A stretch of DNA of 42,978 bases from Candidatus Gastranaerophilales bacterium (GTDB lineage Bacteria > Cyanobacteriota > Vampirovibrionia > Gastranaerophilales > Gastranaerophilaceae). The translations under genes were made by a program, and so were the position numbers. Within the stretch, counting starts at the first letter, position 1; the number at the start of each line of letters is the position of its first letter. The DNA lies in assembly GCA_944323405.1 (NCBI GenBank), contig CALUSJ010000057.1, positions 1-42,978 on the forward strand, written 5' to 3'. The notes beneath the pieces are model-generated. The model was not told the DNA's origin, searched no databases, and saw only the letters and a program-made list of their open reading frames with translations. Positions 1,551-41,732 of this stretch are shown here, piece by piece.

Positions 1551-1580
1551 TATAAAGTATTTCAATAAACAATAATTGCC
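1551..1580 (-). promoter_or_regulatory. GGCAAT-N16-ACTTTATA bipartite motif (candidate alternative-sigma promoter), copy 1
   Basis: Minus strand GGCAATtattgtttattgaaatACTTTATA; same motif and spacing at 4626, 20614 and 41672. Confidence 0.65.
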
Positions 1581-1724
1581 TATTGAAAACATAAGAATTT
1601 AAGAAGAAACTCTCAAATCGAATAATATCGCAAAATAATCGACTTAATATATCTTAATATTTTGTTGAAGTCTTCGTATTTGATTTTTTTATTTGTACAG
1701 TTACAGAAGATTTATTAAAAGATT

Positions 1725-3011
1725 TTAGCCGCCCCAGATTTCATCGTCGTAATATGCTAGTTCTAAATGACCTAAAATAACAGTGTCACCGTTTTTGAGT
1801 CCGTAATTGTGTAATTCTTCGAAAACTCCCATACTTTTCAGGATATTTTGAAGTCTTACGACTTGTTCGGTGTTTCTAGCGTCTGTAACTTTTGCAAGTC
1901 GGTTTATTTTACCTCCTGATATAAGATATGTTTCTTTATCAAGCTTTGTAACCTCAAAATCGCTGTCATCATTATCATATGCACCTAAATCTTCTTCGAT
2001 ATCAATATCAAATTTGGGCTTGGGGATTTCATCAACTTTTCGGGATATAAAATGCAATAATTCATTTATCCCTTCTTTTGTAACTGCTGATATCGGGTAA
2101 ATATCGCAAGAATAAGGTTTAAAATCCTCCACCAATTTATTCAAATCTTGTTTTTGAATAGCATCTATTTTATTTAATACAAGAATTTGATAGAGTTCAG
2201 CCAAGCCTTTAGAATGTTTTTCGAGTTCTTTATTGATAATTTTATAATTTTCAAGCGGATGTTCAGAAGTTAAATCTACTATATGAACCAAAAAACGGCA
2301 TCTTTCAACATGTCTTAAAAATTCGTGTCCGAGTCCAACTCCTTCTGAGGCACCTTCAATAAGCCCGGGAATATCAGCAATAACATAAGAGCCGCTGTCA
2401 TCTTTTTTTACAACACCCAAATTTGGCACAAGAGTTGTAAAAGGGTAATCGGCAATCTTTGGTTTTGCAGAGCTTACAGCGCTAATAAAAGTTGATTTTC
2501 CTGCATTCGGCATTCCAAGAAGCCCGACATCAGCAATAAGTTTTAATTCTAACTCTAGAACTCTTTCAATACCAGGTTCTCCAGGTTCACAAAATTGCGG
2601 AGCTCTCTTTTGCGCTGTTGCAAATCTTGCATTTCCTCTTCCGCCTCTTCCGCCTTTTGCAATAAGAACGGATTGTTCATTTTCAGTAAAATCAGCAATA
2701 ATCTTACCAGTCTTAGTGTCTCGAACTATCGTTCCTAATGGAACTTTTATATATAAATCTTTTGCACAAGCTCCATGCATTCCTTTTATACCGCCGTTTT
2801 CGCCGGATTGAGCTTTGAATACAGATTTAAGCTTAAAATCAAGGAGTGTAGACATATTCTCATCTGCAACAAAATAAATATCACCGCCGCGACCGCCGTC
2901 ACCGCCTGCGGGGCCGCCTTTGTCTACATATTTTTCTCTGCGCCAGGCAACCATACCATTTCCGCCATGGCCGGATATTACTCTGATTTTTGCTTTATCT
3001 AAAAATTTCAT
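1725..3011 (-). CDS. obgE: GTPase ObgE/CgtA with C-terminal DUF1967-type extension
   Basis: Gly-rich Obg domain GGPAGGDGGRGG, G1 GMPNAGKST, YPFTTLVPNLG, DIPGLIEGA, NKID. Confidence 0.98.
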   Translation of the reverse strand: MKFLDKAKIRVISGHGGNGMVAWRREKYVDKGGPAGGDGGRGGDIYFVADENMSTLLDFKLKSVFKAQSGENGGIKGMHGACAKDLYIKVPLGTIVRDTKTGKIIADFTENEQSVLIAKGGRGGRGNARFATAQKRAPQFCEPGEPGIERVLELELKLIADVGLLGMPNAGKSTFISAVSSAKPKIADYPFTTLVPNLGVVKKDDSGSYVIADIPGLIEGASEGVGLGHEFLRHVERCRFLVHIVDLTSEHPLENYKIINKELEKHSKGLAELYQILVLNKIDAIQKQDLNKLVEDFKPYSCDIYPISAVTKEGINELLHFISRKVDEIPKPKFDIDIEEDLGAYDNDDSDFEVTKLDKETYLISGGKINRLAKVTDARNTEQVVRLQNILKSMGVFEELHNYGLKNGDTVILGHLELAYYDDEIWGG

Positions 3012-3092
3012 ACGATTTGTGATTAACCTTTCGAGCTGGTGTTATCTATTATACTACAACGAATATAAATTTTTTTCATGTATAATTAATTT

Positions 3093-4571
3093 ATGTTCAA
3101 GAGAGTATTGTGTTTTTTTGTATGCTGGATTTTTGTTGTTTCGAACTGTGTATACGCAATAGAGCACGATGATGACTTATTTAAACCAGTGGAAATTAAA
3201 GAAGGGATGAGTCTTTCTGTTTTGGATTGTGTTGCAAATGCTTTTAAGCACAGTCCTAAAATAAAACGCAAGAAATACAATCTCGATGTTGCAAAAAGTA
3301 ATGTAGGAATCGCAAGAGCGCAATATTTTCCTGTAATCGGGGCTGGGGCAGGATTTTATAACGAAAATAATTCAGATAATATTTATTATAATACTCATTA
3401 TCGAGAGCTTCCTAACCTAGGAGTTACTATTAATAAAATGATATGGGATTTTGGCAGAACAACGGCATATATCAAAATGGAGGAATTTTATAAGCTGGGA
3501 GCAGAGTACGAATTTATGGACAGCTTATGTTCAACGCTTTTTGATGTAAAAGCTAAATATTATAGTCTTTTGCGTGCTAAAGCTCTTGTTCAGGTAGCGC
3601 AGAACAATGTTGAAATAAACGAAAATTTTGTTAAATTGGCTAAAAAAACGCCTGATTTAAAAACCGCAGAATTCCAATTAAGCGAAGCCAAGATTAATCT
3701 GATTGAAACAAAAAACAATTATCTAAATTCTAAGGTTGATTTAAGTAATTCAATGTATTTAGATAATCCTCCAAATTTTGATATTCAGAATACAAGGACT
3801 TTTGATTTTGATAATTACTATGCCTATAATTCAATGAAGGAACCCCAGAAATTTGTCGGGTATGAATTTAGTTTCCCTCGTGATAAGGCAACAGAGATGG
3901 CTTACGACAACAGCCCTGATTTACAAATACTGATTTCTTCTAAAAAAGCAATGGAACAATCACTTTTATATATCAAAAGAACTTATTTCCCGGAACTTTC
4001 AGCTGGTGCTGGGTATGGTTTTGTAAATTCCAATCAATCATCTAATAATAATTTCCAGGTAGGAGTGAACCTAAACTCGAGTGTTAACCTTATGGAGCTC
4101 AGGCATTCAATTAAAGGAGCTGATGCGCAGGTAAAGCTTGCTGATAATGAAATAACTCTTTTCAAAAAGGATTTGTATTATGAAGTTAGGCGTGCTTTTA
4201 ATAATTTTGATAAGGCAGAAAGAGAAATTCCGACGGCTCAAATGGCGGCAAAACAAGCTTTAGAAACTCTTAAGCTTGTGGAAGAAAAGTATAAGTCAAA
4301 TGAACTTAATTATATAGCGCTTCAAGATGCTCGAAAAGATTATATTCACTCTGTGCAAGAATACATAGAAAGCCTTTATAATTACAACCTGGCGCTTATT
4401 CAAGTCGAAATGGCAATGCATTACCATATTGTAGATATTCATCACAAAACAGAGCACGCTATGTGCTACCATTCAGAAGAAATCATTAATCATTTGAATG
4501 AAGTTTTGAACTGTGATGAAAAAGAAGTTAAGCCGAATAAAAAATCAAAGCGTAAGCCGGATGCTCTATAA
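3093..4571 (+). CDS. TolC-family outer membrane efflux protein
   Basis: Signal peptide ending VYA; two OEP-type repeats (SPKIK..ARAQYFP, IWDFG; SPDLQ..KRTYFP; EVRRAF, ALQDAR). Confidence 0.85.
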   Translation: MFKRVLCFFVCWIFVVSNCVYAIEHDDDLFKPVEIKEGMSLSVLDCVANAFKHSPKIKRKKYNLDVAKSNVGIARAQYFPVIGAGAGFYNENNSDNIYYNTHYRELPNLGVTINKMIWDFGRTTAYIKMEEFYKLGAEYEFMDSLCSTLFDVKAKYYSLLRAKALVQVAQNNVEINENFVKLAKKTPDLKTAEFQLSEAKINLIETKNNYLNSKVDLSNSMYLDNPPNFDIQNTRTFDFDNYYAYNSMKEPQKFVGYEFSFPRDKATEMAYDNSPDLQILISSKKAMEQSLLYIKRTYFPELSAGAGYGFVNSNQSSNNNFQVGVNLNSSVNLMELRHSIKGADAQVKLADNEITLFKKDLYYEVRRAFNNFDKAEREIPTAQMAAKQALETLKLVEEKYKSNELNYIALQDARKDYIHSVQEYIESLYNYNLALIQVEMAMHYHIVDIHHKTEHAMCYHSEEIINHLNEVLNCDEKEVKPNKKSKRKPDAL

Positions 4572-4625
4572 AGAGTTTTGTTTATTAAGAGATGTAAAAA
4601 AAATTAATAATTTATTTTATAATTA

Positions 4626-4676
4626 CGCAATTTTTGTTACTTTTCTTACTTTATAATAATAAGTAAGAAAAAGTAA
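4626..4676 (+). promoter_or_regulatory. CGCAAT-N16-ACTTTATA motif, copy 2, overlapped by an inverted repeat
   Basis: CGCAAT 4626-4631, ACTTTATA 4648-4655; inverted repeat TTTTCTTACTT (4641-4651) / AAGTAAGAAAA (4661-4671). Confidence 0.6.
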
Positions 4677-4685
4677 GGGTTTATT

Positions 4686-7301
4686 ATGACGGAAATTATT
4701 AGCAGTAATAATATTAATTCTTTTAACAAACAGAACTTGCCTCAAAACAATAAAAATACATTTTCGACTATACAAACTCAAAAAGAGTCGGTAGATGCTT
4801 TTTATCGTAAGGAGAGGCGTAAAAATAACGGCTTAATAGAAAAACTTTATAATAAAATTAAAAATCTTACAGGTTTGGGTGTCGGCTCTAAGAAAGTCGA
4901 AAAAGTTATTGCAGATTCAAAAACGGGTAAAGCAAGCCAAAAAGATGTTTTAGATATAATGCATAAATATCATACATCTCAGGAAAATTCAGCTCAATTA
5001 TTTGGTGATGCAGCATCTGTTACAGCCGGAGGAATAACTTATTTTGTACTTCGGAGAAAAGCAAAAATGCTTAATTCTACAGCTGTTCTTAATAAAAATA
5101 TAACTAAACTAGCTGAAAAATTTGGTATTTCTACTAAGCTCGCAGAAAATCTTATAAATTTAGGCAAGTCTAATAAAAAACTTATGGGATTAGTACTAGG
5201 TGCATCTGCTTTGACTGCCGGTTATACAAAATTTTGGCTCTTAAAATTCAATAGAGCCGGCTCTAAAGAATTTATAGTTGACGAAAATGCATATGGTAAA
5301 AAGAAAACAAGGAATTCTTATCAGAAATATCTTGCAAAGCAAGAAAAGAAAGACTTGAAAAAAGAACGAATAAAAACTAATTTCAAAAACTTTGTATCCG
5401 GCATGATTAACGGGCTAATGTTTCCGGCGTTTGCGCTTGGCGGAATAATCGGCGCACCTCTTTATCTTGTTGGAAACAGTTTGAACAGATATTTTGTTGC
5501 TAATAAAACAGACAAAAAGAAATCTTTCGGCGGTTATATTGATAATCTAAAAACAGATGGAGTTATAATTGGTGCTGCAACTGCTGCGGCTGCTGTACCT
5601 TTAGTTAAAAAAGGTAATTTTATAAAAGTTTTTGATGAAAACTTAAAGAAAGCAACAGATAAATTAGAAAAAGCAACTCTAAAAGCCCCAGATTATGCCG
5701 GGAAATCAACTTATGAGAATTTGCAGGATGTTCTATTCAGCAATAAGGCTGTCAGAGATATTATTTATGATTCCAGAATTTCAGTTGAAGATAAGATAAA
5801 GAAATTAACTGACGAAAACATTTTTGCGGTCAAATTTAAACAAATCTCAAACGACGGAACTGAATTAACAAAAGCTCTAAGAGAAAATTGTCCGCCAAGC
5901 AGGACTTTAGACGAGGCAAAACAATATATAACAAACGCTTTAGGCAGCGGATACGAAGTCAAAAAACTTTTAGGTGTCGGAACTGTTGCAGAAACTTATC
6001 TTGCAAAAAGTCCTGATGGAAAGGAAGTTTGTATAAAGATTATTAAAAATGGTATTGATGAAAACAAAATTCTTAAAGATAAAGAAAAATTTATCAACAT
6101 TGTTAAAAATTCAAAAGATTATACTGAAGACGAAAAGAACTTCTTGTTGAAAAATATTGAAGATTTAGCAAGTGGTATTTCTAAAGAAATTGACCTTAAA
6201 AATGAACTAGAAGCTGCAAATAAGCTTGTACCATATACAAAAGTAGCCAATGTCGTAAAACCGATAGAGGTCAAAAACGGAGTTTATATCATGGAAAAAG
6301 CGAATGGTATAAGCCTTGAATCTCTGGTTGAACTTAATTCTGCAAAATTATACAAAGAAGCTTTACAAGATGATAAAAAATCCCTTAATTTTTTAGAACC
6401 TGCTCGAGTATCAAAACTAGGGCAGCTTATCAGAAGTAAAAATACAAAAGAGGAAAAAATTGAAGCAATAGACCAATATATTAAGCGTATAGAAGCAAGG
6501 ACGCCGGAATTCGGTGATATAAGCTTGAGCAAAAAAGATGTTGATAACCTGATTAATGAATATATGAAAGTTTTGACAGAGCAATTTGTTAAGGTTGAAA
6601 AGAACGGAAAAGCAATACACGCTGATATTCATCCGGGTAATATATTTATTGATATTAATGCTCTTAAAAAGAAGAATAAAAACAAAATATTTACGCTCAT
6701 TGATACAGGAAATGTTGTAGAACAGAATCTGGAGCAATCACTCAGAGCAGTTAATTTAACTTCTTATACAAAAAGAGCTAATGTTAAGGATTTAACGGAT
6801 TATCTTCTTGAAGGAGCAAAACTTCCTCAAGGCATGACAAAGGAAGAAGCTGTCAAAAAGATTTCAGAAGAGTTGAAAAAAAGCTTCTTTGATACAGAAA
6901 CAAAACTTAATACTGTTACAAATGACAGTATTCTGACTCTGGGCTCTAACATAATGAGAAAATATAATATTATTCCTGGTGATACGCAGCTGAACTTGAA
7001 TAAGGCGAAACAATCAGCAAGCAACTCTCTTGATCATTTATTGGAGTCATTATTTAGAATAAGATTAAAAGATGTTGATGGGTTAATGAGCGGAATGTCA
7101 TCATTGAGTAAAATTGCTGCAGACATTGCTCTTGTGCATAAAAAAAATACTGCAATGATAGCAAAACAAGAAAAAGCTAATTTAAAAATCCTTCCTTTAC
7201 AAGAAAAGATTAAGCAGAAAAATAATCCGAATAATCTGGCTAAAAACAGTGAAGATTATTTGACATACAAATTAAAACAAAATATGTTAGACATACAATA
7301 A
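4686..7301 (+). CDS. ABC1/AarF/UbiB-family atypical kinase with long N-terminal membrane region
   Basis: LGVGTVAETY, VCIKI, EIDLKNE, MEKANG, HADIHPGNI catalytic loop, LIDTG; several Gly/Ala-rich hydrophobic segments in the first ~310 aa. Confidence 0.85.
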   Translation: MTEIISSNNINSFNKQNLPQNNKNTFSTIQTQKESVDAFYRKERRKNNGLIEKLYNKIKNLTGLGVGSKKVEKVIADSKTGKASQKDVLDIMHKYHTSQENSAQLFGDAASVTAGGITYFVLRRKAKMLNSTAVLNKNITKLAEKFGISTKLAENLINLGKSNKKLMGLVLGASALTAGYTKFWLLKFNRAGSKEFIVDENAYGKKKTRNSYQKYLAKQEKKDLKKERIKTNFKNFVSGMINGLMFPAFALGGIIGAPLYLVGNSLNRYFVANKTDKKKSFGGYIDNLKTDGVIIGAATAAAAVPLVKKGNFIKVFDENLKKATDKLEKATLKAPDYAGKSTYENLQDVLFSNKAVRDIIYDSRISVEDKIKKLTDENIFAVKFKQISNDGTELTKALRENCPPSRTLDEAKQYITNALGSGYEVKKLLGVGTVAETYLAKSPDGKEVCIKIIKNGIDENKILKDKEKFINIVKNSKDYTEDEKNFLLKNIEDLASGISKEIDLKNELEAANKLVPYTKVANVVKPIEVKNGVYIMEKANGISLESLVELNSAKLYKEALQDDKKSLNFLEPARVSKLGQLIRSKNTKEEKIEAIDQYIKRIEARTPEFGDISLSKKDVDNLINEYMKVLTEQFVKVEKNGKAIHADIHPGNIFIDINALKKKNKNKIFTLIDTGNVVEQNLEQSLRAVNLTSYTKRANVKDLTDYLLEGAKLPQGMTKEEAVKKISEELKKSFFDTETKLNTVTNDSILTLGSNIMRKYNIIPGDTQLNLNKAKQSASNSLDHLLESLFRIRLKDVDGLMSGMSSLSKIAADIALVHKKNTAMIAKQEKANLKILPLQEKIKQKNNPNNLAKNSEDYLTYKLKQNMLDIQ

Positions 7302-7340
7302 ATTCAGTATCCCTGTGTTTTATGCCCAAGATGCTAAGAG

Positions 7341-8186
7341 TTAGAACTTTGCGTATGAGCCTATTACCCTGATAGTTTTAGCCTGAGGCTCCAAATCACG
7401 GATAAGATTTTTGATAATCTCGTCTTCTTTATGTCCGTCAAAGTCAATAAATACAGCCTGTTCTTCTGCATTGTTATTCATCATTTTTGAGTTTATCTGA
7501 GTTATATTGATATGATATTTTACAAAAACCTGAACGATATCCAACAAGGCTCCCTGCCTGTCATTCAAGAATAAAACTATACTCGTTTTATCTTTTCCTG
7601 TCGGCTGAGTCTCAGCGTCTCCGATAACAATAAACCGGCGCTTATTATCTTTATCATCTTCAATATGTTCACGCAATACATTTAAGTTGTATATCTCAGC
7701 GGTTTTATGAGTTCCTATAATAGAATATGTTAAATTATAGCTGTTCAAGCGTCTTGCTGCATCATCCATGCTTTCAGCTACTACAATATTAAGTTGTCGG
7801 GGCATTTCTTCTCTTACAAAATTTTTGCTTTTTGCCAGTGCATTAGGATTCGCTATCAGCCCGGTTAAACTATAAAATTCTGTAGTTTTTGATAAAATAC
7901 AATCATTTACTGGGACAATTGTTTCTGCAAGAATTTGAATATTTTGATTTTTAGTCATAATCAAGTTATCAATAGTTTCTCTGATAATCCCCTTATATGT
8001 AGTCTCGACGGGTAATACAGTTATAGCATTGCAATTCTCGTCCACATAATCAATGCAATCCTTAATAGAATTTAAAGATTTTTGATATAAATACAAATCA
8101 TATGCCTTAAATAACTTATCTTTTGCTATTTCAGAATATGAACCGCCCATGCCGAGACATATAATTTCGTTAAATTCTTCAAACAT
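7341..8186 (-). CDS. prephenate dehydratase-like protein (PDT+ACT), degenerate paralog
   Basis: Colinear with PheA at 29901 (LGMGGSYS, GIIRETIDNL, TGKDKTSI, FIDFDGH, VIGSY) but catalytic-region motifs are altered. Confidence 0.8.
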   Translation of the reverse strand: MFEEFNEIICLGMGGSYSEIAKDKLFKAYDLYLYQKSLNSIKDCIDYVDENCNAITVLPVETTYKGIIRETIDNLIMTKNQNIQILAETIVPVNDCILSKTTEFYSLTGLIANPNALAKSKNFVREEMPRQLNIVVAESMDDAARRLNSYNLTYSIIGTHKTAEIYNLNVLREHIEDDKDNKRRFIVIGDAETQPTGKDKTSIVLFLNDRQGALLDIVQVFVKYHINITQINSKMMNNNAEEQAVFIDFDGHKEDEIIKNLIRDLEPQAKTIRVIGSYAKF

Positions 8187-17627: not shown

Positions 17628-17767
17628 AATACAATTATAACATTTTTTATATCTAATTCATACTGTATATGTTTTATTTTTCTTCAGAAGTTTATAATGT
17701 GCTCTATTTAGCAAAAAAATAATTTACAGGTTTTGTTTATAATAATATAGAATAAGGATATCGCAAA

Positions 17768-18334
17768 ATGTTGGTAAATAATAAACAAAATCTGAGCTTT
17801 GGGCAATTAAAAGGTATACAATACTTAAAACAGTTTAACCCGAAGAAAAATGTTTTTCATGCACAAGCCGTGAATGCTTTTTATAGAAATACTGCTTTGC
17901 AAAACTTCATGGATAAATTCGATGTAAAAGCAAAATTTGTTTCAGAAGTTGAATTTGGAAGCAGTTCATATATTTCAAGGACAAATTTATACCTGCTTTT
18001 TGGACCTAAAGAGAAGAGTTGTTCAAAAAATTTATTTTCACGTATAGCATCATTTTTTTCAAAAAATAAAAAACAAAAATATCCTTATGTAGTTTCTGCA
18101 GCAGGAGCTTGTTCTTCATATCGTTCTAACTATGAAAATGTGCAGAGAGAATTTATAAAATCTATTAATTCTATTAACGATGATAGATTAAATTATCTTA
18201 TAAAAAATCACGGGTATTTTTCTGATAAACCAGCTGAAAAAATTCCTAAGAATAAGATTAGTGAAATTCTCAGTTTTCTTGGAATTCAAAGACATATTAC
18301 TTCTCGTAATAAAAAAAGAATTGCTGAATATTAA
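17768..18334 (+). CDS. basic hypothetical protein with N-terminal NLSFG motif
   Basis: 188-aa ORF, AAGGA RBS; MLVNNKQNLSFG. Confidence 0.7.
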   Translation: MLVNNKQNLSFGQLKGIQYLKQFNPKKNVFHAQAVNAFYRNTALQNFMDKFDVKAKFVSEVEFGSSSYISRTNLYLLFGPKEKSCSKNLFSRIASFFSKNKKQKYPYVVSAAGACSSYRSNYENVQREFIKSINSINDDRLNYLIKNHGYFSDKPAEKIPKNKISEILSFLGIQRHITSRNKKRIAEY

Positions 18335-20372: not shown

Positions 20373-20582
20373 TTATCCGGCAATTTTATTTAAAAACCTT
20401 TGCCAAAGTGAAAGCCTAATACTCTCTTTTGCTTTAGGTAAAACTGGTTTGGGGAATTCTTGCCAATACGGCTGGGTTCGGAAATCATTTTCACTACCAT
20501 ATCTGGCCTTGAAATACTGATGCATATTTCCGTAACCCATGCCGCCCATCATTGGATAACCATACATTCCGTAATTAAACAT
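20373..20582 (-). CDS. small hypothetical protein (69 aa), Gly/Met/Tyr-rich N-terminus
   Basis: AAAGGTG RBS; own upstream GGCAAT motif. Confidence 0.7.
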   Translation of the reverse strand: MFNYGMYGYPMMGGMGYGNMHQYFKARYGSENDFRTQPYWQEFPKPVLPKAKESIRLSLWQRFLNKIAG

Positions 20583-20613
20583 AATTTAACACCTTTTTTT
20601 ACTACACTATATA

Positions 20614-20666
20614 TATAAAGATTTTTGATGCAGTAAAATTGCCTTAATATTACGAAATGTTACATT
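20614..20666 (-). promoter_or_regulatory. GGCAAT-N16-TCTTTATA motif, copy 3, with adjacent degenerate HLR1-like repeat
   Basis: Motif at 20614-20643; ATTACGAA-at-GTTACATT at 20649-20666. Confidence 0.6.
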
Positions 20667-26042: not shown

Positions 26043-27362
26043 TTATGCTTTAATTACTCCTTCTCTTATCAGTTGCTCTTTTATATCTCTTTTAGTCTGA
26101 AATTCTTTACCTGACTTATCTGAATATCTTTTTAGAAGCATTGCAGCAGGAGTAATTACGCCCAAAGCTAAAATAGAGGCTCCTATGTTACCGATAATAG
26201 ATTGTCTCTTCAATTTTCTTACCTGTTTAAAGAATTTATCTGAAGTTTCGCCTTTACTCAGTGCATCTTTGTATTGAGCATATAATTCTGCGGTTTTTTC
26301 TTTTATTCCTTTTACTTCTTCTAAATCAATAAATTCTCTAGTATCAATTTTTTCTGTATTCTTTAGAAGCTTAACGATATCAGATTTTTTGGCTGCCTTA
26401 ACAATCTCATTTTCAGGATTTTTGTGTATGAATTCATACAGGCTTTCTTTTGAACTATTTGCGGCATCAAATTCCTTAATGCTATTAAGAATAGAAGCGT
26501 TTTCGAAAGATTTCTTTAATTCTTCTCCTTCTAAAACCCTTGCATCAAGTGTTATAGACTTGTTGTGTTTTTTCTTCGCAGCATTTTCCATCCATTGCTG
26601 GATTTTTTTGCCAGCAAAATATAAGAAAAACAGACAGGAGCCTTCTTTTATTGCATAACCTGCAAATTCCTGCGGGTTTCTTGCGTCAGCTAATCTTTCA
26701 AATGTAATAAATCCATCTAATATCCACATATTTTTGACAGAAGAAAACGCAAATTCTTCAACAACTTTTCCAAATCCCTTGAAAGAAGGATTGTTTTGAG
26801 GGCTTTGGAGATTTTGAGAATTTTTCTGTGCTTCTTCCTGTGCCTTCTGTTTTTCTTGATATTCTTTTATTAAATTTTTTCTTATCTGTTGATGAGTATA
26901 ATATTGTTTTAATCTCGTAAATCCAAAATAAGCCGCAGCAGCTGTTAGTGTTGAAAATACAAACTTGGACGCTGCAAGGTTTTTAAACAATCTTCTATTT
27001 TTTTCGGCTTTTTCTAAATTCTTTTTAATTTCTTCTGATGGTGCAAACTCTTTTAATTTCTTAAAAAGTTCCATATCTTTAAGATTTCTTGGGTCAATTT
27101 TTGAATCAAAGCCAAATGCTTTAATTACTGTTTTATCAAATAACCATCTGAGTCCCGGAATTCCTCCAAGCCATAAAGCTTCTGTTCCAAACTCATCAAT
27201 TAATCTGTCAACGCCTTCCTCTTTCCCTGTGATATATGAACCTGCTGTCATACCAACGCACTGTGTGCCGTCTTTAACAGCTAAAGGTATGAGTGAATCG
27301 GGGTTACCTAATGTAGAGTATATTTTTGCTGCATTCCATATCATATAGCCTACAACCCCCAT
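26043..27362 (-). CDS. hypothetical multi-pass membrane protein with two tandem modules
   Basis: 439-aa ORF (start may be ATG 27344); hydrophobic segments either side of a Q/N-rich linker ending NNPSFKG; architecture shared with 35970..37856. Confidence 0.8.
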   Translation of the reverse strand: MGVVGYMIWNAAKIYSTLGNPDSLIPLAVKDGTQCVGMTAGSYITGKEEGVDRLIDEFGTEALWLGGIPGLRWLFDKTVIKAFGFDSKIDPRNLKDMELFKKLKEFAPSEEIKKNLEKAEKNRRLFKNLAASKFVFSTLTAAAAYFGFTRLKQYYTHQQIRKNLIKEYQEKQKAQEEAQKNSQNLQSPQNNPSFKGFGKVVEEFAFSSVKNMWILDGFITFERLADARNPQEFAGYAIKEGSCLFFLYFAGKKIQQWMENAAKKKHNKSITLDARVLEGEELKKSFENASILNSIKEFDAANSSKESLYEFIHKNPENEIVKAAKKSDIVKLLKNTEKIDTREFIDLEEVKGIKEKTAELYAQYKDALSKGETSDKFFKQVRKLKRQSIIGNIGASILALGVITPAAMLLKRYSDKSGKEFQTKRDIKEQLIREGVIKA

Positions 27363-27416
27363 TTCAAATTCATTAATTTTTTACTGTGTTTGTTCATACT
27401 ACGACCTTCCTTAAAC

Positions 27417-27469
27417 TTAAAAGTGTATAAATAATAAAAATTGCCTAATTATTAACAAAATTTTACAAA
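27417..27469 (-). promoter_or_regulatory. GGCAAT-N15-ACTTTTAA (degenerate copy 4) plus HLR1-like repeat
   Basis: Motif at 27417-27445; TTAACAAA-at-TTTACAAA at 27452-27469. Confidence 0.5.
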
Positions 27470-35540: not shown

Positions 35541-35567
35541 GCTTATATATAAAAAGTGGATAAATAA

Positions 35568-35597
35568 AAAAAGCCTAAAGAGTTCTTTAGGCTTTTT
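35568..35597 (+). terminator. intrinsic terminator after rpsP
   Basis: AAAAAGCCTAAAG-agtt-CTTTAGGCTTTTT. Confidence 0.85.
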
Positions 35598-35607
35598 AGT
35601 TATAGGA

Positions 35608-35636
35608 TTGACAAAATTTCTAGAATCTCTTATCAT
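35608..35636 (+). promoter_or_regulatory. sigma70 promoter of 35670..35966
   Basis: TTGACA-N17-TATCAT. Confidence 0.75.
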
Positions 35637-35669
35637 GCGTTTGTGTTTATTATGTAGTGGAGTGTTATT

Positions 35670-35966
35670 ATGAGAGTTAGTTCTATAAGTGTTGCTTCGT
35701 CTCAGAGAATGAGTCTTTACAAACAAAATAGCTATTTAAAACCTCCGTTAAAACAAGAAGGGCCTAAGTCACAAGATGTAGCATTCAAAGGAGGGTTAAA
35801 GCTGGGAGATTATATTGCTGGCGGAATTTGCGGAACGGTATTTGGAATAGTTGCGACAGCAGCATTAGGTCCTATAGCAGGGATTGCAGCCGGATTGTTT
35901 GTCGGCAAAGCAGCTGCTGATGCGAACAATGAGACAAGAAAATACGATCCTAATGATAGTAAGTAG
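35670..35966 (+). CDS. small glycine-zipper membrane protein with VAFKG motif
   Basis: GGAG RBS; polar leader, DVAFKG, then GGICGTVFGIVATAALGPIAGIAAGLFVG. Confidence 0.8.
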   Translation: MRVSSISVASSQRMSLYKQNSYLKPPLKQEGPKSQDVAFKGGLKLGDYIAGGICGTVFGIVATAALGPIAGIAAGLFVGKAAADANNETRKYDPNDSK

Positions 35967-35969
35967 TTT

Positions 35970-37856
35970 TTAGGCTTGTTTTGTATTTTTTTCGTATGCT
36001 TTTCTTGTGTTGTAATAAGTAAGTTTTGGTATAAGATAACCGAGAAGTAATGGTGAAAGGACTACTGTTGATAGGAAGCCCGGCACAGAATTAAGTCCTC
36101 GAGCCATTTTAGCAATATTGTTGTGCTTAATTTCACCAGAGCCTTTCATTACTTTGGCGATAATTTCATTAGAACCATCAAATTTTTCGAATAGTTCAAT
36201 AATTTTTTTATTTTTCTCTTTCGAAGAAAGATTTTTTATAGAATCGAGTGTAAATGTTTTATCATTAAACATTAGAGAAGCATTTTCTGATTTAGAAATA
36301 ATTTTACCGAGATCGCCGCCCTTATCATTTATGAAATTTGAGAAATTGAGTAATTTTGCTTTAGAATCTATATCGGAATATATTGCATCTAAATCAGCAA
36401 CGGATAAAACTTCTAAGTTACTGTAAGGCCAGATAATATCTGTAAACTTTTTGAACCAATTTTTACCATCAGAAGCTCTGTTGGTGAGAATAAATCCCAT
36501 TTTGTTTTCATAAGAACGAACTATAGCTTTAGTTAATAGTGGAACAGCAAATACGACAGAGAGTGAAGAAACAGTATCTCTTAAAAGAATTTCATTGATT
36601 TCTGTCATATCTCTTTTACCATTTTCATCTATTTGTGCTCTATCCCAGGCCTTTTTCCCTCTCGGAAGCAGCAAGCCAAAAGTAGCAAGAGCAGCGAATG
36701 TAGTTTTAGAAAAATTATAGCCCGTATATTCCAGAAGAGCTTGTATTTTTTCCGGCGTATGTTTTACTAAAAATTCTCCAAACTTAGCAAAGAAGCCGTC
36801 ATTGTTTATGCCTTTTCCTTTAAACGCAGGAGCTGTTTCTGGAGTTTGAATGTTGTTGTTTTGTTGTTTATCTTGAGTTGCTGTACTAGAATTTTTCTTG
36901 GCATGTCCATGAACTTTTGCACCAGGCGCAACATCACCTCTTACATATAATTTCGGAATATAAGCCAAGCCAACAAGTGTAATCACTATATTTGCGACGT
37001 TGGTCAAGAAACGTTTAGAAGCAAAGTTATTTTTTATATTCTCAATATTATTTTCAAAAATAGAATCTCTTTGTTTATTTCTTTCAACGGCATCTATACC
37101 ATAATCTCTTATTGCAGTAATAACTTCACCGGAGCTAAATGCTTGCTTTGTTTTTTCGTCACCGACAGTAAGAGTATTAACTTTGTATAGTTCAGAAGAA
37201 GTTTCAACCATCTTGCTGTTAATTTTTGCTCGTATACGTCCAAGAGCTTCTTCTTTAACTTTTTTCTTATTATGAGGTTCAAAATGTTTCATTTCGTTCA
37301 ATATAAAGTCGATTGCTTCCTGCGGGTTTTTATCTCCGGGAACGGAATCTTTATATATGGAACTTATGTGATATTTATAAAATTCTTGTTTGAATTTTTT
37401 TGCATCGTTCATTATAGACCTATCAAATTGAGGGTCATTAATCATTTTTTTGAAGCTTTCACTCAGACGTTTGATAAGTCTTGTATTAGTATTTGTAGAT
37501 CTGCAAAAAAGTCCAGTGACTGCAAGAACAGCCGGGGCAACACCTATTATGTAAGGGCCGGTCATGGCTTCACGTCCTAAAACTTCAAAACCTTCCTGCA
37601 TATTATATGTGCCAGTGATTTCTTTGTCACGGTTGAAACCTGTTATAACTCGTGGCAGCGTCATCCCTAAACCGTCTTGGATAAGAAAAGAAACAAGATA
37701 GCCTTGTTGTTCTATCCAATTCATAATGGTTCCAGTACTGCCCAAAATAGGCATAACTAGTGATGAGCCAAAACTTGGGTGTTGTTTTCTATCTGACTTA
37801 ACTTGTGCTGGATTGTTAGAAATCCTATTTTGACTATTAATACCGACAATTTTCAA
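35970..37856 (-). CDS. hypothetical multi-pass membrane protein with two tandem modules, each opened by an F(x)G motif
   Basis: 628-aa ORF, TTG start with AGGA; HPSFG near residue 30 and APAFKG after an N/Q/T-rich linker; both modules end in G(x)xYxIPKL-like segments. Confidence 0.85.
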   Translation of the reverse strand: MKIVGINSQNRISNNPAQVKSDRKQHPSFGSSLVMPILGSTGTIMNWIEQQGYLVSFLIQDGLGMTLPRVITGFNRDKEITGTYNMQEGFEVLGREAMTGPYIIGVAPAVLAVTGLFCRSTNTNTRLIKRLSESFKKMINDPQFDRSIMNDAKKFKQEFYKYHISSIYKDSVPGDKNPQEAIDFILNEMKHFEPHNKKKVKEEALGRIRAKINSKMVETSSELYKVNTLTVGDEKTKQAFSSGEVITAIRDYGIDAVERNKQRDSIFENNIENIKNNFASKRFLTNVANIVITLVGLAYIPKLYVRGDVAPGAKVHGHAKKNSSTATQDKQQNNNIQTPETAPAFKGKGINNDGFFAKFGEFLVKHTPEKIQALLEYTGYNFSKTTFAALATFGLLLPRGKKAWDRAQIDENGKRDMTEINEILLRDTVSSLSVVFAVPLLTKAIVRSYENKMGFILTNRASDGKNWFKKFTDIIWPYSNLEVLSVADLDAIYSDIDSKAKLLNFSNFINDKGGDLGKIISKSENASLMFNDKTFTLDSIKNLSSKEKNKKIIELFEKFDGSNEIIAKVMKGSGEIKHNNIAKMARGLNSVPGFLSTVVLSPLLLGYLIPKLTYYNTRKAYEKNTKQA

Positions 37857-37894
37857 TATTCTATTCCTACCCGACTAAGTGTAACCTTGACACT

Positions 37895-37959
37895 ATTATA
37901 ATTACATATACAGTTTATAACAAGATAGAGTATATACGATTGTTAGAAAAATTTACAAA
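37895..37959 (-). promoter_or_regulatory. sigma70-like promoter plus HLR1-like repeat for the 628-aa gene
   Basis: Minus strand TTGTTA-N17-TATAAT; GTTAGAAA-aa-TTTACAAA at 37942-37959. Confidence 0.5.
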
Positions 37960-38018
37960 AATAATTATCAAGGAAATTTTAGGGCTGCTTGATTTGGTAT
38001 TTATGCTAAAATCTCTAT

Positions 38019-38624
38019 ATGAAATATAAGTGGCTTAATAAAGAAAACAATAAGAAGTTAATAATATTTTTCAATGGCTGGGGAATGGATGAGTGTGTTG
38101 TCGAACATTTGGAGCCTGGTGATTATGATGTAATTATGCTTTATGATTATAATTCTCTAGAGTTTGATTTTTCTTTTGTGCAAAAGTATAGTGAAAAGTA
38201 CTTAATAGCCTGGTCAATGGGTGTTATGTGTGCTTCAAATTTTGATATAGAATACAATAGTTCTACTGCAATAAATGGTACACTTAAACCGATTGATAAC
38301 AGCTTTGGAATCCCAGAAAGAATTTATGATTTGACATTAAATAATTTAAGCCCTGCAAGTTCTAAAAAATTTATTAGAAATATGTTTAAAGAAGCTGTCG
38401 AGTTACCTAAAATTAATAGAGAATTTGATAATATAAAAAAAGAATTAGAGGCATTAAGAATGTACAATACGAACTTAAACTTTAAATACAATAGGGTAAT
38501 AATAAGTAATGAAGATAAAATAATTCCGACCAAAAATCAGCTTGCTTTTTGGAACGTCTTGCCAAATGTAGATAGCGGTCACTGCCCATTTTTTAAATAT
38601 AAAAAATGGAGTGAGCTAATATGA
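38019..38624 (+). CDS. bioG: pimeloyl-ACP methyl ester esterase BioG (DUF452)
   Basis: LIIFFNGWGMD, AWSMGV nucleophile elbow, AINGT..PID..FGIP, DKII, HCPF; coupled to bioC. Confidence 0.85.
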   Translation: MKYKWLNKENNKKLIIFFNGWGMDECVVEHLEPGDYDVIMLYDYNSLEFDFSFVQKYSEKYLIAWSMGVMCASNFDIEYNSSTAINGTLKPIDNSFGIPERIYDLTLNNLSPASSKKFIRNMFKEAVELPKINREFDNIKKELEALRMYNTNLNFKYNRVIISNEDKIIPTKNQLAFWNVLPNVDSGHCPFFKYKKWSELI

Positions 38625-39355
38625 ATTCTGACTTAATACGAAGCAGGTTTGAAAAGAGTCTCAGTACGTATAATGAGAATGCTGCTGTTCAGAAATTAAT
38701 GGCACAAAAGCTTTATTCGCTGTTAGACGAAAAAAAATATAAAAAAATATGGGAAATCGGATGCGGAACAGGGGTTTTGACAGAGATATTGGCGAAGGAA
38801 CTGGACTTTGACTCATATATTGCAAATGATATGGTTGAAAAGTGCAAAGATTATATCAAAGGAATCAGTTGTAGAGTTGATTTTATACCTGAAAATTTGT
38901 ACGATTTAGTTCAAAAACAAACGGGGCCATATAATCTTATTATATCGAACGCAGTTTTTCAGTGGCTTGAAACCCCGGAAAATATTATAAGAGAGTTAAT
39001 CAAATTTTTAGAACCTGGCGGAAGCTTAATTTTTTCAACATTTGGGCCGGAGAATTTTAAAGAAATATATAGGACATTAGGAAAAACATTAAATTATTAT
39101 ACGATAGAAGATTGGAAAGATAAGCTGGGAGGCTTAATTTATTCTATAGAAGAAGATATTATTGAGCTTTCGTTTGAAAATGCAATAGACATATTAAGAC
39201 ATATGAAATATACAGGAGTAAATTCTATAGAAAGCATGCCTTGGACAAAAACAAAAATGTTAAAATTTGAAAATATATACAATAATTGTTGCAAAGGCAC
39301 GCCCTTACTAACATATAATCCAATTTATATTCATATTAAAAATATAATAAAATAG
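38621..39355 (+). CDS. bioC: malonyl-ACP O-methyltransferase
   Basis: RFEKSLSTYNENAAVQ, EIGCGTG, SNAVFQW, FSTFGPENFKE, LRHMKYTGVN, LTYNP. Confidence 0.9.
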   Translation: MNSDLIRSRFEKSLSTYNENAAVQKLMAQKLYSLLDEKKYKKIWEIGCGTGVLTEILAKELDFDSYIANDMVEKCKDYIKGISCRVDFIPENLYDLVQKQTGPYNLIISNAVFQWLETPENIIRELIKFLEPGGSLIFSTFGPENFKEIYRTLGKTLNYYTIEDWKDKLGGLIYSIEEDIIELSFENAIDILRHMKYTGVNSIESMPWTKTKMLKFENIYNNCCKGTPLLTYNPIYIHIKNIIK

Positions 39356-39431
39356 GACAGGCGGTTAATATCTTCAAATAAAAAAATGCTATACAATAAA
39401 TGCATTGATATTAAAAAACAAACGAGGTGAT

Positions 39432-40553
39432 ATGGAAACAGCTCACACCAATCCTATTGTAGATTCAAAAGATAATGTATTTGTCAACCACTACCAGTTA
39501 GAAGCTCTTTTGAAACACATTCCAGATTTGATTTATATGAAGGATCTAGATGGTAACTTTATAAATGGAACACGTAATGCAGTTGAATTTGTTAAGAGCG
39601 GCATAGATACAGAAAACGATATTAAAATTGATATGAAGAGTATCGAGAAAGAGATTTTGGAAGAAGATAATTCTGTAATTACTCAAGGCAAGACTATAAG
39701 CAATGAGAGAGAAGTTTATGATGTCAAAGGAATGCCGCATTATTATACGGTTTATAAAACACCGATATATGGCATGCAAAAACAAATAATCGGCATTGCT
39801 GTGAAAATTAATAATATAGATAAGTCTAAGTTATTGGAAGCTCAAAAAGAAACTTTTGTGGCGACATTGGGTCATGATTTAAAGAATCCAACATTGGCAT
39901 TAATTTCGGTATTGACTCTTTTATTGAAAGAGAATTTTGGCGCTTTAGCACCGGCGCAGCGAGAGATTTTGGATATGGCATTAGATTCTTGTTTTTCTAT
40001 GAAAGCTATGCTTTCTGGATTAATAGCAACATATCGAGACGGCAACGGTATTATAAACTTAAATTACGATCAATTTTCTTTAGAGGAATTGGTTATGGAA
40101 TGTGTAAATGAGATGGTTTGTTTAGCCAAAGATAAAGATGTAGGAGTTTCTATTCAAAAAGGCTGTAAAATTCCTACTGTTTATGGTGATAGAGTTCAGA
40201 TTAAAAGAGTTGTTATAAACTTGCTTTCCAATGGTATAAAATATGCTTATAAAAATTCTGTTTTGAATATATCAGTTTATAATGAGGGAAATTATACTTG
40301 TTTTAAATTTGAAAACAAAAGTCCTTATATTCCGCCAGATAAGATAGAAACAATATTCGCACAATATGTTTCATACGCTACGGCATATAAAGAACTTGGT
40401 ATTGGCTTAGGTCTTTACACTTCTCAAAAGATAGTGGAAGCGCATGATGGCAAAATATTTGTTGAGAGTTATAAGAAAGATAAAAATATCTTTGGCTTCA
40501 AACTCCCGAATGAACTGAAGAAGACTGATAAACCGAGAACGGTTATATTTTAG
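39432..40553 (+). CDS. cytoplasmic PAS-domain sensor histidine kinase (orphan)
   Basis: IPDLIYMKDLDG PAS, H-box LGHDLKNP, N-box NLLSNGIKY, GLGLY, HDGKI; GAGG RBS before ATG 39432. Confidence 0.92.
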   Translation: METAHTNPIVDSKDNVFVNHYQLEALLKHIPDLIYMKDLDGNFINGTRNAVEFVKSGIDTENDIKIDMKSIEKEILEEDNSVITQGKTISNEREVYDVKGMPHYYTVYKTPIYGMQKQIIGIAVKINNIDKSKLLEAQKETFVATLGHDLKNPTLALISVLTLLLKENFGALAPAQREILDMALDSCFSMKAMLSGLIATYRDGNGIINLNYDQFSLEELVMECVNEMVCLAKDKDVGVSIQKGCKIPTVYGDRVQIKRVVINLLSNGIKYAYKNSVLNISVYNEGNYTCFKFENKSPYIPPDKIETIFAQYVSYATAYKELGIGLGLYTSQKIVEAHDGKIFVESYKKDKNIFGFKLPNELKKTDKPRTVIF

Positions 40554-40561
40554 AAAGCTTG

Positions 40562-40909
40562 TTAGCAGCCTCTTGGCGGGTTCTTATAAGCATCGCTCCA
40601 GATTTGCTGAACTTTTTTTATAGCTTTGGAAATATTTTGTAATAATTTATCCGGGTTTTGAGCAAATTCTAAAGGTGATACATTCTTAGCTCCGTGGCTT
40701 CCGAGATAACCATATCTATGGTGAGCAAAACCAATTTCTTGAAGTCCTTCTGTAAAATATATATCTGTTTCTCTTGAATCAAGTTTTTTGATAAGATTGA
40801 TATTATTTTCATTAGAAACAAATTCTGAAATTTTGTTTAAGTCTTTAGTGTTGACTCGAGAAGGGAATCTTACGCCCTGAAAGTTTGTTGATGTTTTTTG
40901 TACTTGCAT
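40562..40909 (-). CDS. hypothetical protein with N-terminal TNFQG motif
   Basis: AAAGGAG RBS; MQVQKTSTNFQG. Confidence 0.75.
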   Translation of the reverse strand: MQVQKTSTNFQGVRFPSRVNTKDLNKISEFVSNENNINLIKKLDSRETDIYFTEGLQEIGFAHHRYGYLGSHGAKNVSPLEFAQNPDKLLQNISKAIKKVQQIWSDAYKNPPRGC

Positions 40910-41006
40910 GTGATATACTCCTTTATAAATTGATAGCGTATAAATAATATATCACAAAAAATTTTTTTATTATCAAGTAGTAATTTTATAATATTTTACG
41001 CATAAT

Positions 41007-41032
41007 AAAAAAAAGCCTCTTTTTTAAGAGGC
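41007..41032 (-). terminator. intrinsic terminator after 41111..41626
   Basis: Minus strand GCCTCTT-aaaa-AAGAGGC-T8. Confidence 0.8.
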
Positions 41033-41110
41033 GAGGGGAATTTAAGTTAATAGGTATACACTTCACATTATCTACACACTAAGAGTTTTTAGAGTTATTT
41101 AAACATCTTT

Positions 41111-41626
41111 TTACGAGAGTCCGAATCTAGGTACATTATCTCTGGCCTCCTGACTTGCTAATTGTTTAGCCGATTCTAACTCAGCCCGTTTCATTGTAAT
41201 TCTTTGTTCTATAGAATTCATCTCAAGCTGAATTTCTTTTTCTTTTTCGTTTAGAACCTGAATTTCTTGTTGTTTTAGAGCTTTCATTGATTCTTCTTTA
41301 AATTTAGCAAAAGCACTCATCTCTATTTGGTATTGTGTCATTGGATTACCTGTCCAAGGCACCATACCGCTCATTTTCATTGCCTGTAAGTTTTGCATTG
41401 CACTCATAGAGCTTGCCTGATTAGAAAACTGTGCAAACATTGCAGCTCTAGGCAGAAGCTCGGCAGACATTCCGGCAACATTGCTCATTGTCATTACAGA
41501 TGAGCCACCGAGGACACTCGCATACTTTTGATAGTTCGAAAGTCTGTTGCGGGTCTCTATTGCCTGCCTTTCTAAATAATTTATTTCACGTGTTAACCTC
41601 TGGACCAGCCAGAATGCCATTAACAT
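41111..41626 (-). CDS. Met/Gln-rich helical protein with N- and C-terminal coiled coils
   Basis: 171-aa ORF with own promoter motif and terminator; ends NVPRFGLS. Confidence 0.85.
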   Translation of the reverse strand: MLMAFWLVQRLTREINYLERQAIETRNRLSNYQKYASVLGGSSVMTMSNVAGMSAELLPRAAMFAQFSNQASSMSAMQNLQAMKMSGMVPWTGNPMTQYQIEMSAFAKFKEESMKALKQQEIQVLNEKEKEIQLEMNSIEQRITMKRAELESAKQLASQEARDNVPRFGLS

Positions 41627-41671
41627 AGTAAACCTACCTAACTTTTTCTAACCTTTTTTACCTTACATGAA

Positions 41672-41732
41672 TATAAAGTATTTTTACTTTTAAAAATTGC
41701 CTTTTTTCTTTTCTTTTGTTAAGATTTGTAAA
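41672..41732 (-). promoter_or_regulatory. GGCAAT-N16-ACTTTATA motif, copy 5, plus HLR1-like repeat; overlaps a divergent sigma70-like promoter
   Basis: Motif at 41672-41701; minus strand TTTACAAA-tc-TTAACAAA at 41715-41732; plus strand TTGCCT-N17-TAAGAT. Confidence 0.6.

What the first reader, a model, noticed from the sequence alone, without database searches (positions are those of the whole stretch)
1551..41701. Candidate alternative-sigma regulon: (G/C)GCAAT-N16-(A/T)CTTTATA before five non-housekeeping genes
Seen: on each gene's coding strand, GGCAAT-N16-ACTTTATA (1551-1580; 41672-41701), GGCAAT-N16-TCTTTATA (20614-20643), CGCAAT-N16-ACTTTATA (4626-4655) and GGCAAT-N15-ACTTTTAA (27417-27445), all within ~30-75 nt of the start codon. 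All five extend to A(G/C)GCAATT. The genes are the EF-hand/coiled-coil protein, the membrane ABC1 kinase, the 69-aa peptide, the tandem-module membrane protein and the Met-rich coiled-coil protein; I saw it before no housekeeping gene. Known: two boxes at fixed spacing is the layout of sigma -35/-10 elements, and this matches neither sigma70, sigma28 nor sigma54 consensus. Inference: a dedicated sigma factor, or an activator site plus a sigma70 -10, controls a dispersed lineage-specific programme such as secretion, surface or developmental functions. Caveat: the reverse strand reads TTGCCT, a sigma70 -35-like box, which may serve the DUF386 gene at 41757.
Basis: partly seen in the sequence, partly recalled or inferred. 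Interest (0 to 1): 0.82.

Follow-up and report, generated by a model that had tools for sequence, protein, structure and literature searches.

The report
New promoter class in predatory-lineage cyanobacteria
A two-box DNA signal repeats about 70 times in this non-photosynthetic gut relative of cyanobacteria and across its wider lineage, almost only in front of lineage-specific genes and short RNAs, and is very likely an undescribed promoter type, probably read by a dedicated copy of the main sigma factor to switch on a set of proteins that are likely exported.

Summary
The motif is real. GCAAT-N17-CTTTATA occurs 32 times in the genome against 0-4 at any other spacing, 31 of 32 outside coding DNA, and in 123 of 123 genomes of the family (Gastranaerophilales). 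Four of the five window sites are strong; 27417-27445 is weak. It behaves as a promoter: an unselected pyrimidine/purine step sits at a fixed distance (31 of 32 sites; again in relatives), and in nine genomes it stands directly before a near-invariant terminated small RNA. In that register it reads RGCAATT (-35) and (TG)nYTTTAT (-10): a sigma70 layout, but with T at -11 where sigma70 needs A. A generalised form marks five related families and is at background in six others. Of eight sigma factors, only an RpoD paralogue with R436Q co-occurs with it (14 of 15 positive, 0 of 21 negative genomes); this is co-occurrence in kin, not binding. Targets are mostly orphans (7 of 55 with a Pfam family, against 47 of 70), lack signal peptides (0 of 51), and include cell-wall hydrolases; the genome has two flagellar-type export gates. 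Export and a host- or prey-contact programme are inferred. No RNA data were available. Not found in print.

The parts
1545..1580 (-). Strong promoter site (33.6 bits); predicted start of transcription at 1545
   Evidence: start predicted from the fixed pyrimidine/purine step
897..1514 (-). Target gene, 205 aa, no Pfam or NCBIfam family; the ATG at 1514 fits the promoter, the longer ORF to 1592 would swallow it
4626..4661 (+). Promoter site (25.9 bits); predicted start at 4661
4686..7301 (+). Target gene, 871 aa, ABC1 atypical kinase domain at residues 427-560 behind a long lineage-specific, Ser/Asn/Gln-rich N-terminal part
20608..20643 (-). Strong promoter site (33.9 bits); predicted start at 20608
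20373..20582 (-). Target gene, 69 aa, no family
41666..41701 (-). Strongest window site (39.1 bits); predicted start at 41666; the site is kept before three distant homologues of the gene in other genera
41111..41626 (-). Target gene, 171 aa Met-rich helical hairpin, no family; weak profile links to other targets and to the sigma28-driven MG.AASQARL family
27410..27445 (-). Weak or off-register site (3.5 bits; 16.0 with a 1-nt shorter spacer); doubtful member
26043..27362 (-). Possible target gene, 439 aa membrane protein of a Melainabacteria-only family
41697..41725 (+). Overlapping back-to-back sigma70-like promoter (TTGCCT-17-TAAGAT, TG extension) that would serve the DUF386 gene at 41757; shares bases with the upstream box
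   Evidence: consensus match only

Best explanation
The motif is very likely a promoter of the sigma70 layout with an unusual -10 box (T at -11), probably read by a lineage-specific RpoD paralogue (the R436Q type on contig C150), and it would switch on, as one programme, about 60 orphan genes whose products are likely exported by a type III route, plus several small RNAs. Shown by sequence: fixed 17-nt spacing, intergenic co-oriented position, a pyrimidine/purine step at a fixed distance, placement directly before terminated small RNAs, orphan-rich targets without signal-like N-termini, and co-occurrence with that sigma across families. Register from the start step: R-35 G-34 C-33 A-32 A-31 T-30 T-29, then in the older form T-15 G-14 T-13 T-12 T-11 T-10 T-9 A-8 T-7, in this family mostly T-14 A-13 C-12 T-11 T-10 T-9 A-8 T-7. 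Inferred: the sigma binds the GCAA core like RpoD binds this genome's TTGCAA/TTGAAA boxes, one base further out; its kept H455/E458 read the TG; the AT-rich -10 melts without an A at -11, which keeps RpoD off and makes recognition stringent. Inferred further: the programme is a life-cycle phase distinct from the FliA phase, serving contact with a host or prey cell.
For: Spacing peak 32 vs 0-4. 123 of 123 family genomes, 4-43 exact sites, reversed control 0-2. Start step in positions the search pattern did not fix: 31 of 32 in G000; -1 pyrimidine 23 of 24 and +1 purine 24 of 24 in loci of other family genomes; 18 of 20 and 19 of 20 in family f42 (20 of the 22 sites of G400 and G371 were fetched). 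5' leaders from that start: median 28 nt, n=54. Nine genomes: both boxes kept, spacer free, then an almost invariant RNA of about 60 nt ending in a hairpin and T run. T at -11 and -10 in 72 of 72 sites, against A at -11 in 60 of 94 housekeeping-like TTGM-N16-TG sites. Generalised pattern: 6-32 sites in each of 15 genomes of f1, f39, f42, f45, f47; 0-4 in 22 genomes of six other families; control 0-1. R436Q-type sigma: 30 of 30 family genomes, 14 of the 15 positive genomes, none in 21 negative genomes whose RpoD-like matches were all typed. G400 has 16 sites and only RpoD, this sigma and FliA were found. FliA and an ECF sigma have their own promoter classes here. Targets: Pfam family over cut-off 7 of 55 vs 47 of 70 control operon heads (p 6e-10); signal-like N-terminus 0 of 51 vs 318 of 1444, and S/N/Q/P/T-rich N-termini; LysM-amidase-lysozyme, GH108, CHAP-like and LysM proteins among them. 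Two FlhA, two FliP, two FliF.
Against: No transcript, start-site or binding data. The candidate sigma keeps the residues known to read A-11, T-7 and the TTGACA box; only R436Q, T583S, A592N/T and K593R stand out near DNA, and R436 is described as a backbone contact (PMC10911233, passages), so nothing in its sequence predicts T-11. No motif site was found before its own gene in the 27 loci where its ORF was picked out. The five positive families are kin: one gain could explain both traits, and the choice among sigmas rests on four genomes lacking the C7 type. It was not found in G395 (9 sites; 190 contigs, RpoD itself partial). The generalised pattern was written after seeing f39 and f47 sites. 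The alternating TATA run gives pyrimidine/purine steps at -5/-4 and -3/-2 too. No site precedes the export-gate genes looked at, and an FlhA-family gate is also present in motif-negative families. The signal-peptide test is a crude hydrophobicity proxy. Some targets look cytoplasmic (ribbon-helix-helix, HEAT repeat).
Confidence: 0.58

Rival explanations
1. It is a promoter, but read by the more diverged RpoD paralogue on contig C7 (region 4.2 KECIRQ), whose DNA-facing residues have changed most.
For: Present in f1, f39, f45, f47 and one f42 genome and not found in negative families. In f1 and f39 it has K for R584, and R584A prefers A at -31 (PMC2613000, passages), as in GCAA. It also changes T440, a -12 contact. 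A motif site lies within 1.5 kb of its gene in about half of 29 loci, against 1 of 30 for the C48 type.
Against: Not found in four of 15 positive genomes: G299 (97% complete, 16 sites), G400, G371, G395. f45 and f47 copies keep R584 with the same box. The nearby sites drive a small RNA or a neighbour, not the sigma.
Confidence: 0.14
2. RpoD transcribes these genes with a clade-specific activator or sigma-binding protein that recognises one or both boxes and makes up for the missing A at -11.
For: The layout (TG at -15/-14, T-12, T-7, GCAA core) is that of this genome's housekeeping promoters. An AT-rich -10 can make up for a missing -11A (PMC10911233, passages). No DNA-binding regulator was screened for co-occurrence.
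Against: T at -11 and -10 is invariant (72 of 72), which looks like selection for a read base rather than tolerance; spacing is stricter than sigma70's 16-18; RpoD is near-identical in negative families.
Confidence: 0.15
3. It is read by a group 3 or ECF sigma (SigF-like C68, FliA, or ECF C134/C41), which are known for strict spacing.
For: Strict spacing; RGCAATT resembles the ECF -35 register (recalled) and the TAGGCA stretch of the Synechocystis SigF promoter (PMC2532724, passages).
Against: No ECF match in 4 of 4 f42 genomes that carry the motif; an ECF-type GAAAC-N16/17-CGTC class exists separately (25 of 30 loci by eye); FliA has its canonical class; SigF-like and FliA genes are present in negative families, and SigF was not found in G400 or G395; the motif lacks SigF's GGG box.
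Confidence: 0.08
4. It is not a promoter but a repeat, recombination site or by-product of a divergent sigma70 -35 box in AT-rich DNA.
For: The reverse strand reads TTGC; 7 of 18 divergent seed sites have a reverse sigma70-like match.
Against: Spacer sequence is free while boxes are kept; not palindromic; 12 of 32 sites have no divergent gene; start step and leader lengths fit transcription.
Confidence: 0.05

Closest known systems
Sigma70 (RpoD) extended -10 promoters, TTGACA-17-TATAAT with TGn (PMC2613000, passages read)
   Same: Two boxes at helical spacing, TG at -15/-14 in the older form, T-12, T-7, G and A of the -35 core, pyrimidine/purine start; the candidate reader is an RpoD paralogue with H455/E458 and RER.RQ.
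   Different: T, not A, at -11 in 72 of 72 sites; no TT at the head of the -35; G one base further out (18-nt equivalent); no tolerance in spacing.
Cyanobacterial group 2 sigma factors (SigB-E)
   Same: RpoD-derived, non-primary, no large N-terminal region.
   Different: Group 2 factors read the same type 1 promoters as SigA (PMC2532724, passages); here the proposed promoter is one that RpoD should not read. The protein scores under the NCBIfam cyanobacterial RpoD/SigA-family cut-off (323.9 vs 384.5).
Synechocystis SigF promoter, TAGGC (-32) and GGTAA (-12) (PMC2532724, passages read)
   Same: Upstream box resembles TAGGCA; stringent recognition.
   Different: No GGG/GGTAA box; a second class in this genome (TAGCAAA...GGGTTTT) fits SigF better.
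FliA attack-phase regulon of Bdellovibrio bacteriovorus (PMC3627812, abstract read)
   Same: A sigma-defined, dispersed programme with small RNAs in a bacterium with a phased life; this genome also has a FliA regulon of orphan genes.
   Different: The motif here is not the FliA motif and would be a second, separate programme; phases and predation are not shown for Gastranaerophilales.
Sigma-controlled type III substrate regulons (HrpL hrp box; FliA class 3 genes; both recalled)
   Same: Dispersed genes with signal-less, Ser/Asn-rich N-termini under one promoter type.
   Different: HrpL is an ECF sigma and also drives the apparatus; no site was found before the export-gate genes here.

Membership tests
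Sigma70-family promoter (general) | Two boxes at fixed spacing, oriented with the gene | tested here: met
Sigma70-family promoter (general) | Transcription start a fixed few bases after the -10 box | tested here: inconclusive
   Indirect only: pyrimidine/purine step and small-RNA boundary; no mapped starts
Sigma70-family promoter (general) | Sigma-dependent transcription in vitro or in vivo | not testable with these tools
   needs experiment
Canonical RpoD / group 2 promoter | A at -11 | tested here: not met
   T in 72 of 72 and in the f42 pattern; A in 60 of 94 housekeeping-like sites
Canonical RpoD / group 2 promoter | T at -7, T at -12, TG at -15/-14 | tested here: met
   T-7 67 of 72; in f42 T-15 17, G-14 15, T-12 17 of 20, partly fixed by the pattern; in G000 -12 is mostly C and -14 mostly T
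Canonical RpoD / group 2 promoter | TTGACA-like -35 at 16-18 nt | tested here: inconclusive
   GCAA core kept, TT mostly lost; a TGAAATT variant exists
Sigma28 (FliA) promoter | TAAA-N15-GCCGATAA | tested here: not met
   a separate canonical class of 21 genes exists in the genome
Cyanobacterial SigF promoter | GGG/GGTAA box near -12 to -15 | tested here: not met
   positions -16 to -13 are A/T-rich
ECF promoter | AAC in the -35 and CGT/GTC in the -10 (recalled); an ECF gene present | tested here: not met
   boxes differ; separate ECF-type class; no ECF match in 4 of 4 motif-positive f42 genomes with this query
Sigma54 promoter | GG-N10-GC at -24/-12 | tested here: not met
   matrix has no such pair; presence of an rpoN gene was not tested
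Type III substrate regulon | No Sec signal; low-complexity Ser/Asn/Thr/Pro-rich N-terminus | tested here: met
   0 of 51 vs 318 of 1444; 0.35 vs 0.24, p 9e-12 (crude proxy)
Type III substrate regulon | Export apparatus encoded | tested here: met
   two FlhA, FliP, FliF; the second FlhA is under both the FlhA and SctV cut-offs
Type III substrate regulon | Apparatus genes share the promoter | tested here: not met
   no site before the gates on C61, C87, C91, C38, C101
Type III substrate regulon | Demonstrated export | not testable with these tools
   needs experiment

The most novel reading that the evidence does not exclude
Gastranaerophilales and their sister families (likely including Vampirovibrio) run a sigma cascade like a predator's life cycle: FliA for a swimming phase, and an RpoD paralogue that has switched to a T-11 promoter for a contact phase in which about 60 effectors, cell-wall hydrolases and flagellin-like hairpin subunits go out through a second, flagellum-derived type III gate, with CU-rich small RNAs tuning the switch. 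Common gut 'fermenters' would then be cell-contact predators or parasites, and a group 2-type sigma would break the -11A rule without changing its melting residues.
Probability: 0.3. Interest if true: 0.92.

Novelty: new variant of a known kind. Interest (0 to 1): 0.74.

Why it matters
Gastranaerophilales are common, uncultured gut bacteria, the sister lineage of photosynthetic cyanobacteria, with many orphan genes and no described promoter or sigma regulon in the papers searched. A sharp promoter signature sorts about 60 orphans and several new small RNAs per genome into one programme and gives a marker for reading life-cycle phases from metatranscriptomes. If an RpoD paralogue with intact melting residues reads T at -11, it tests a central rule of sigma70 promoter opening and could supply an orthogonal sigma-promoter pair. 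The signal-less hydrolases and the second export gate make the open question of how these bacteria live directly testable.

Tried and rejected
Expression: no RNA holder was listed for window 1-8000; this is no evidence either way. Family-only distribution: suggested by the exact pattern, rejected after the generalised pattern. De novo two-box search in 800 kb of G165 (f2) gave only palindromic repeats, and the matrix gave background. Autoregulation: no site before the C7, C48, C150 or C68 sigma genes. C48-type sigma as reader: not found in 6 of 15 positive genomes. Flagellin on C36 as a target: a terminator lies between. Small-RNA targets: pairing of the first RNA with sigma start regions was not specific (best 5% in 7 of 28, 10 of 29 and 7 of 25 for three sigma types); genome-wide duplex ranks gave weak or no enrichment for regulon genes (p 0.03-0.83) and fliA at rank 19 and 14 of 1529 for two RNAs, a lead only. 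Rfam: no credible match in four loci. Hfq not found in the 80%-complete genome. Fold of the 171-aa protein: helical hairpin, mean pLDDT 74, no Foldseek match at E 0.001 or better, VIA-align best Z 10.1 among generic coiled coils; Atlas neighbours are unnamed Melainabacteria clusters. Viral contigs: 19 exact matches in 2.9 million contigs, not examined. Earlier notes of this scan: nothing on this motif in four look-ups.
Full report
Setting. The window is contig C57 of a 1.76 Mb, 34.5% GC, 80% complete genome. One of its sigma factors is 97% identical to that of a record titled Candidatus Gastranaerophilales bacterium (L462), and its orphan proteins fall in Melainabacteria clusters. Families other than the genome's own (f1) are unnamed handles; that the positive ones include Vampirovibrio's family is my guess from genome size and sigma trees, not a result.

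Observation. GCAAT-N17-CTTTATA occurs 32 times; the other 25 spacings give 0-4 and inverted or swapped boxes 0-8. It is the top two-box signal in 991 upstream regions (24 observed, 0.34 expected). A matrix from this genome gives 72 sites at 20 bits or more against 0-7 for shifted spacers and 0-1 for shuffled columns. The consensus is aaaaRGCAATTtt-N-aaatACTTTATATATATR, with GAAATT and TCAATT variants. One of 32 seed sites is in coding DNA, which is 86% of the genome. Four window sites score 26-39 bits; the fifth (27445) scores 3.5, or 16.0 with a shorter spacer. The reverse-strand TTGCCT does head a plausible sigma70 promoter for the DUF386 gene (41697-41725), and 7 of 18 divergent seed sites show the same overlap, but 12 of 32 have no divergent gene.

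It behaves as a promoter. Selecting on the two boxes alone, 31 of 32 sites have a pyrimidine then a purine 5 and 6 nt after CTTTATA, with C and G allowed there and rare in the same phase upstream; in loci of other family genomes the counts are 23 of 24 and 24 of 24, and in family f42 18 of 20 and 19 of 20 (20 of 22 sites fetched). From that start, leaders have a median of 28 nt (n=54) and keep the ribosome-binding site. Sites with no ORF lead into short RNAs ending in a hairpin and T run. In nine genomes the boxes are kept, the spacer varies, and an almost invariant RNA of about 60 nt begins at the predicted start; its core is in 61 of 121 family genomes and has no Rfam match. No RNA run was listed, so no start is mapped.

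Register. With that start, the upstream box is R-35 G-34 C-33 A-32 A-31 T-30 T-29 and the downstream one C/T-12 T-11 T-10 T-9 A-8 T-7; T-11 and T-10 are invariant in 72 of 72. The older form has TG at -15/-14. Housekeeping-like sites anchored on TTGM-N16-TG have A at -11 in 60 of 94 and T at -7 in 50 of 94. So the layout is that of an extended -10 sigma70 promoter without the A at -11 that nucleates melting (PMC2613000 and PMC10911233, passages read; the latter notes that an AT-rich -10 can make up for its absence).

Range. The exact pattern is in 123 of 123 family genomes (4-43 sites; reversed control 0-2) and at 0-3 elsewhere in the phylum sample of 301, 0-4 in ten other families of the class. 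After seeing sites in f39 and f47 I generalised it to RGCAATT-N14-KWYTTTATW: 6-32 sites in each of 15 genomes of f1, f39, f42, f45 and f47, 0-4 in 22 genomes of f2, f3, f40, f41, f43, f44 and f46, control 0-1. f42 and f45 are out of sample.

Which sigma. The genome and 5 of 5 complete relatives have eight sigma factors: RpoD, three RpoD paralogues (C7, C48, C150), a SigF-like, FliA and two ECF. FliA has its own canonical class before 21 genes. An ECF-type box precedes the C48-type gene in 25 of 30 loci by eye, and no ECF match was found in four motif-positive f42 genomes. The C48 type was not found in 6, and the C7 type in 4, of the 15 positive genomes. The C150 type (WWIQQ, SRER.RQIE) is in 30 of 30 family genomes and 14 of the 15 positive ones, and in none of 21 negative genomes whose RpoD-like matches were all typed; G010 was not typed. 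G400 has 16 clean sites and only RpoD, the C150 type and FliA were found. Against it: its melting and -35 residues are canonical; clade-wide changes are R436Q, P504S/T, T583S, A592N/T and K593R among others (numbering approximate); no site precedes its own gene; it was not found in fragmented G395; and the positive families are kin, so this is one correlated gain. The C7 type has more altered contacts and stays the main rival; RpoD plus an unscreened activator is the other.

What is switched on. Of 55 targets scanned (54 in the fetched loci plus window 26043), 7 have a Pfam family over cut-off, against 47 of 70 control operon heads (the first 70 of a random 140 drawn from 216; hand counts; p 6e-10). 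NCBIfam added no family over cut-off for 52 proteins. None of 51 targets has a signal-like N-terminus against 318 of 1444 other genes, and their first 25 residues are richer in S, N, Q, P and T (crude proxy). Named domains are a LysM-amidase-lysozyme, a LysM protein, a GH108 muramidase, a weak CHAP, an amylase-family domain, the ABC1 kinase, a HEAT-repeat and a ribbon-helix-helix protein. Cell-wall hydrolases without a signal peptide need another way out. The genome has two FlhA, two FliP and two FliF; the second FlhA is below both the FlhA and SctV cut-offs. No site precedes these gates, and motif-negative f2 and f3 genomes also have FlhA-family gates, so the link is indirect. The 171-aa window target is a helical hairpin with no assignable fold; its distant homologues keep the promoter; profile iteration links it weakly (E 8e-4 to 4e-3 in 1529 proteins) to the MG.AASQARL family, four of seven members of which are FliA-driven here, while a member in f39 sits behind this promoter.

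Mechanism and status. Shown: the motif, its position, start signature, range, targets and co-occurrence.

Literature. Ten searches found no paper on promoters or sigma factors of Gastranaerophilales, Melainabacteria or Vampirovibrio; PMC5877343 (passages) has no mention of sigma. The library lacks most subscription papers. Earlier notes of this scan cover the FliA class in this group but not this motif.

Verdict. A real, clade-wide, apparently undescribed promoter class (about 0.93 that it is a promoter; about 0.58 for the full best reading). New variant of a known kind; interest 0.74.

Noticed in passing
window 17709-17734 (+); about 30 sites in G000: A second class, TAGCAAAAA-n-TTTTT-(A)GGGTTTT, sharing the GCAA box, precedes genes with MKIN...NFKG-type N-termini (here 17768-18334; also an AvrB-like Pfam hit on C115). 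Its geometry resembles the Synechocystis SigF promoter. The first small RNA sits behind this class in G000 but behind the finding's class in other genera.
   Followed up: partly
window 42706-42732 (-): Canonical sigma28 site before the orphan gene 42256-42669; 21 such genes in the genome, one divergent from fliA itself.
   Followed up: partly
G000 C166:14332, C38:342, C160:22943, C101:17796, C44:17098, C36:960, C54:1985; L144, L139, L161-L163: At least five families of short CU-rich terminated RNAs, most behind the motif; one is complementary to an AAGGTT word enriched in target leaders (10 of 62 vs 21 of 931). No Rfam match in the four loci scanned; targets unresolved.
   Followed up: partly
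G000 C91, C87, C101, C115: A second, diverged flagellar-type export set (FlhA, FliH, FliP, FliF, an ATPase) scattered over the genome; f2 genomes have a single FlhA with a similar lower score. Not classified by tree.
   Followed up: partly
L168-L197 upstream regions: ECF-type promoter before the C48-type sigma in 25 of 30 loci by eye: an ECF-to-sigma cascade.
   Followed up: no
L139-L167 upstream regions: The C7-type sigma often has TTGAAA-17-TATACT overlapped by repeated GTATATAC palindromes, a likely repressor site.
   Followed up: no
window 27363-27400 (-): An ATG with a good ribosome-binding site lies upstream of gene 26043-27362 out of frame across an A run; possible frameshift or sequencing slip.
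   Followed up: no
L431 (G371): An RpoD-like domain fused behind about 270 residues of unrelated N-terminal sequence (600 aa).
   Followed up: no
G000 C98:716 and C148:6086: Two near-identical motif sites followed by a TGTAAC-N-GTTACA palindrome at the predicted start, a possible repressor site.
   Followed up: no
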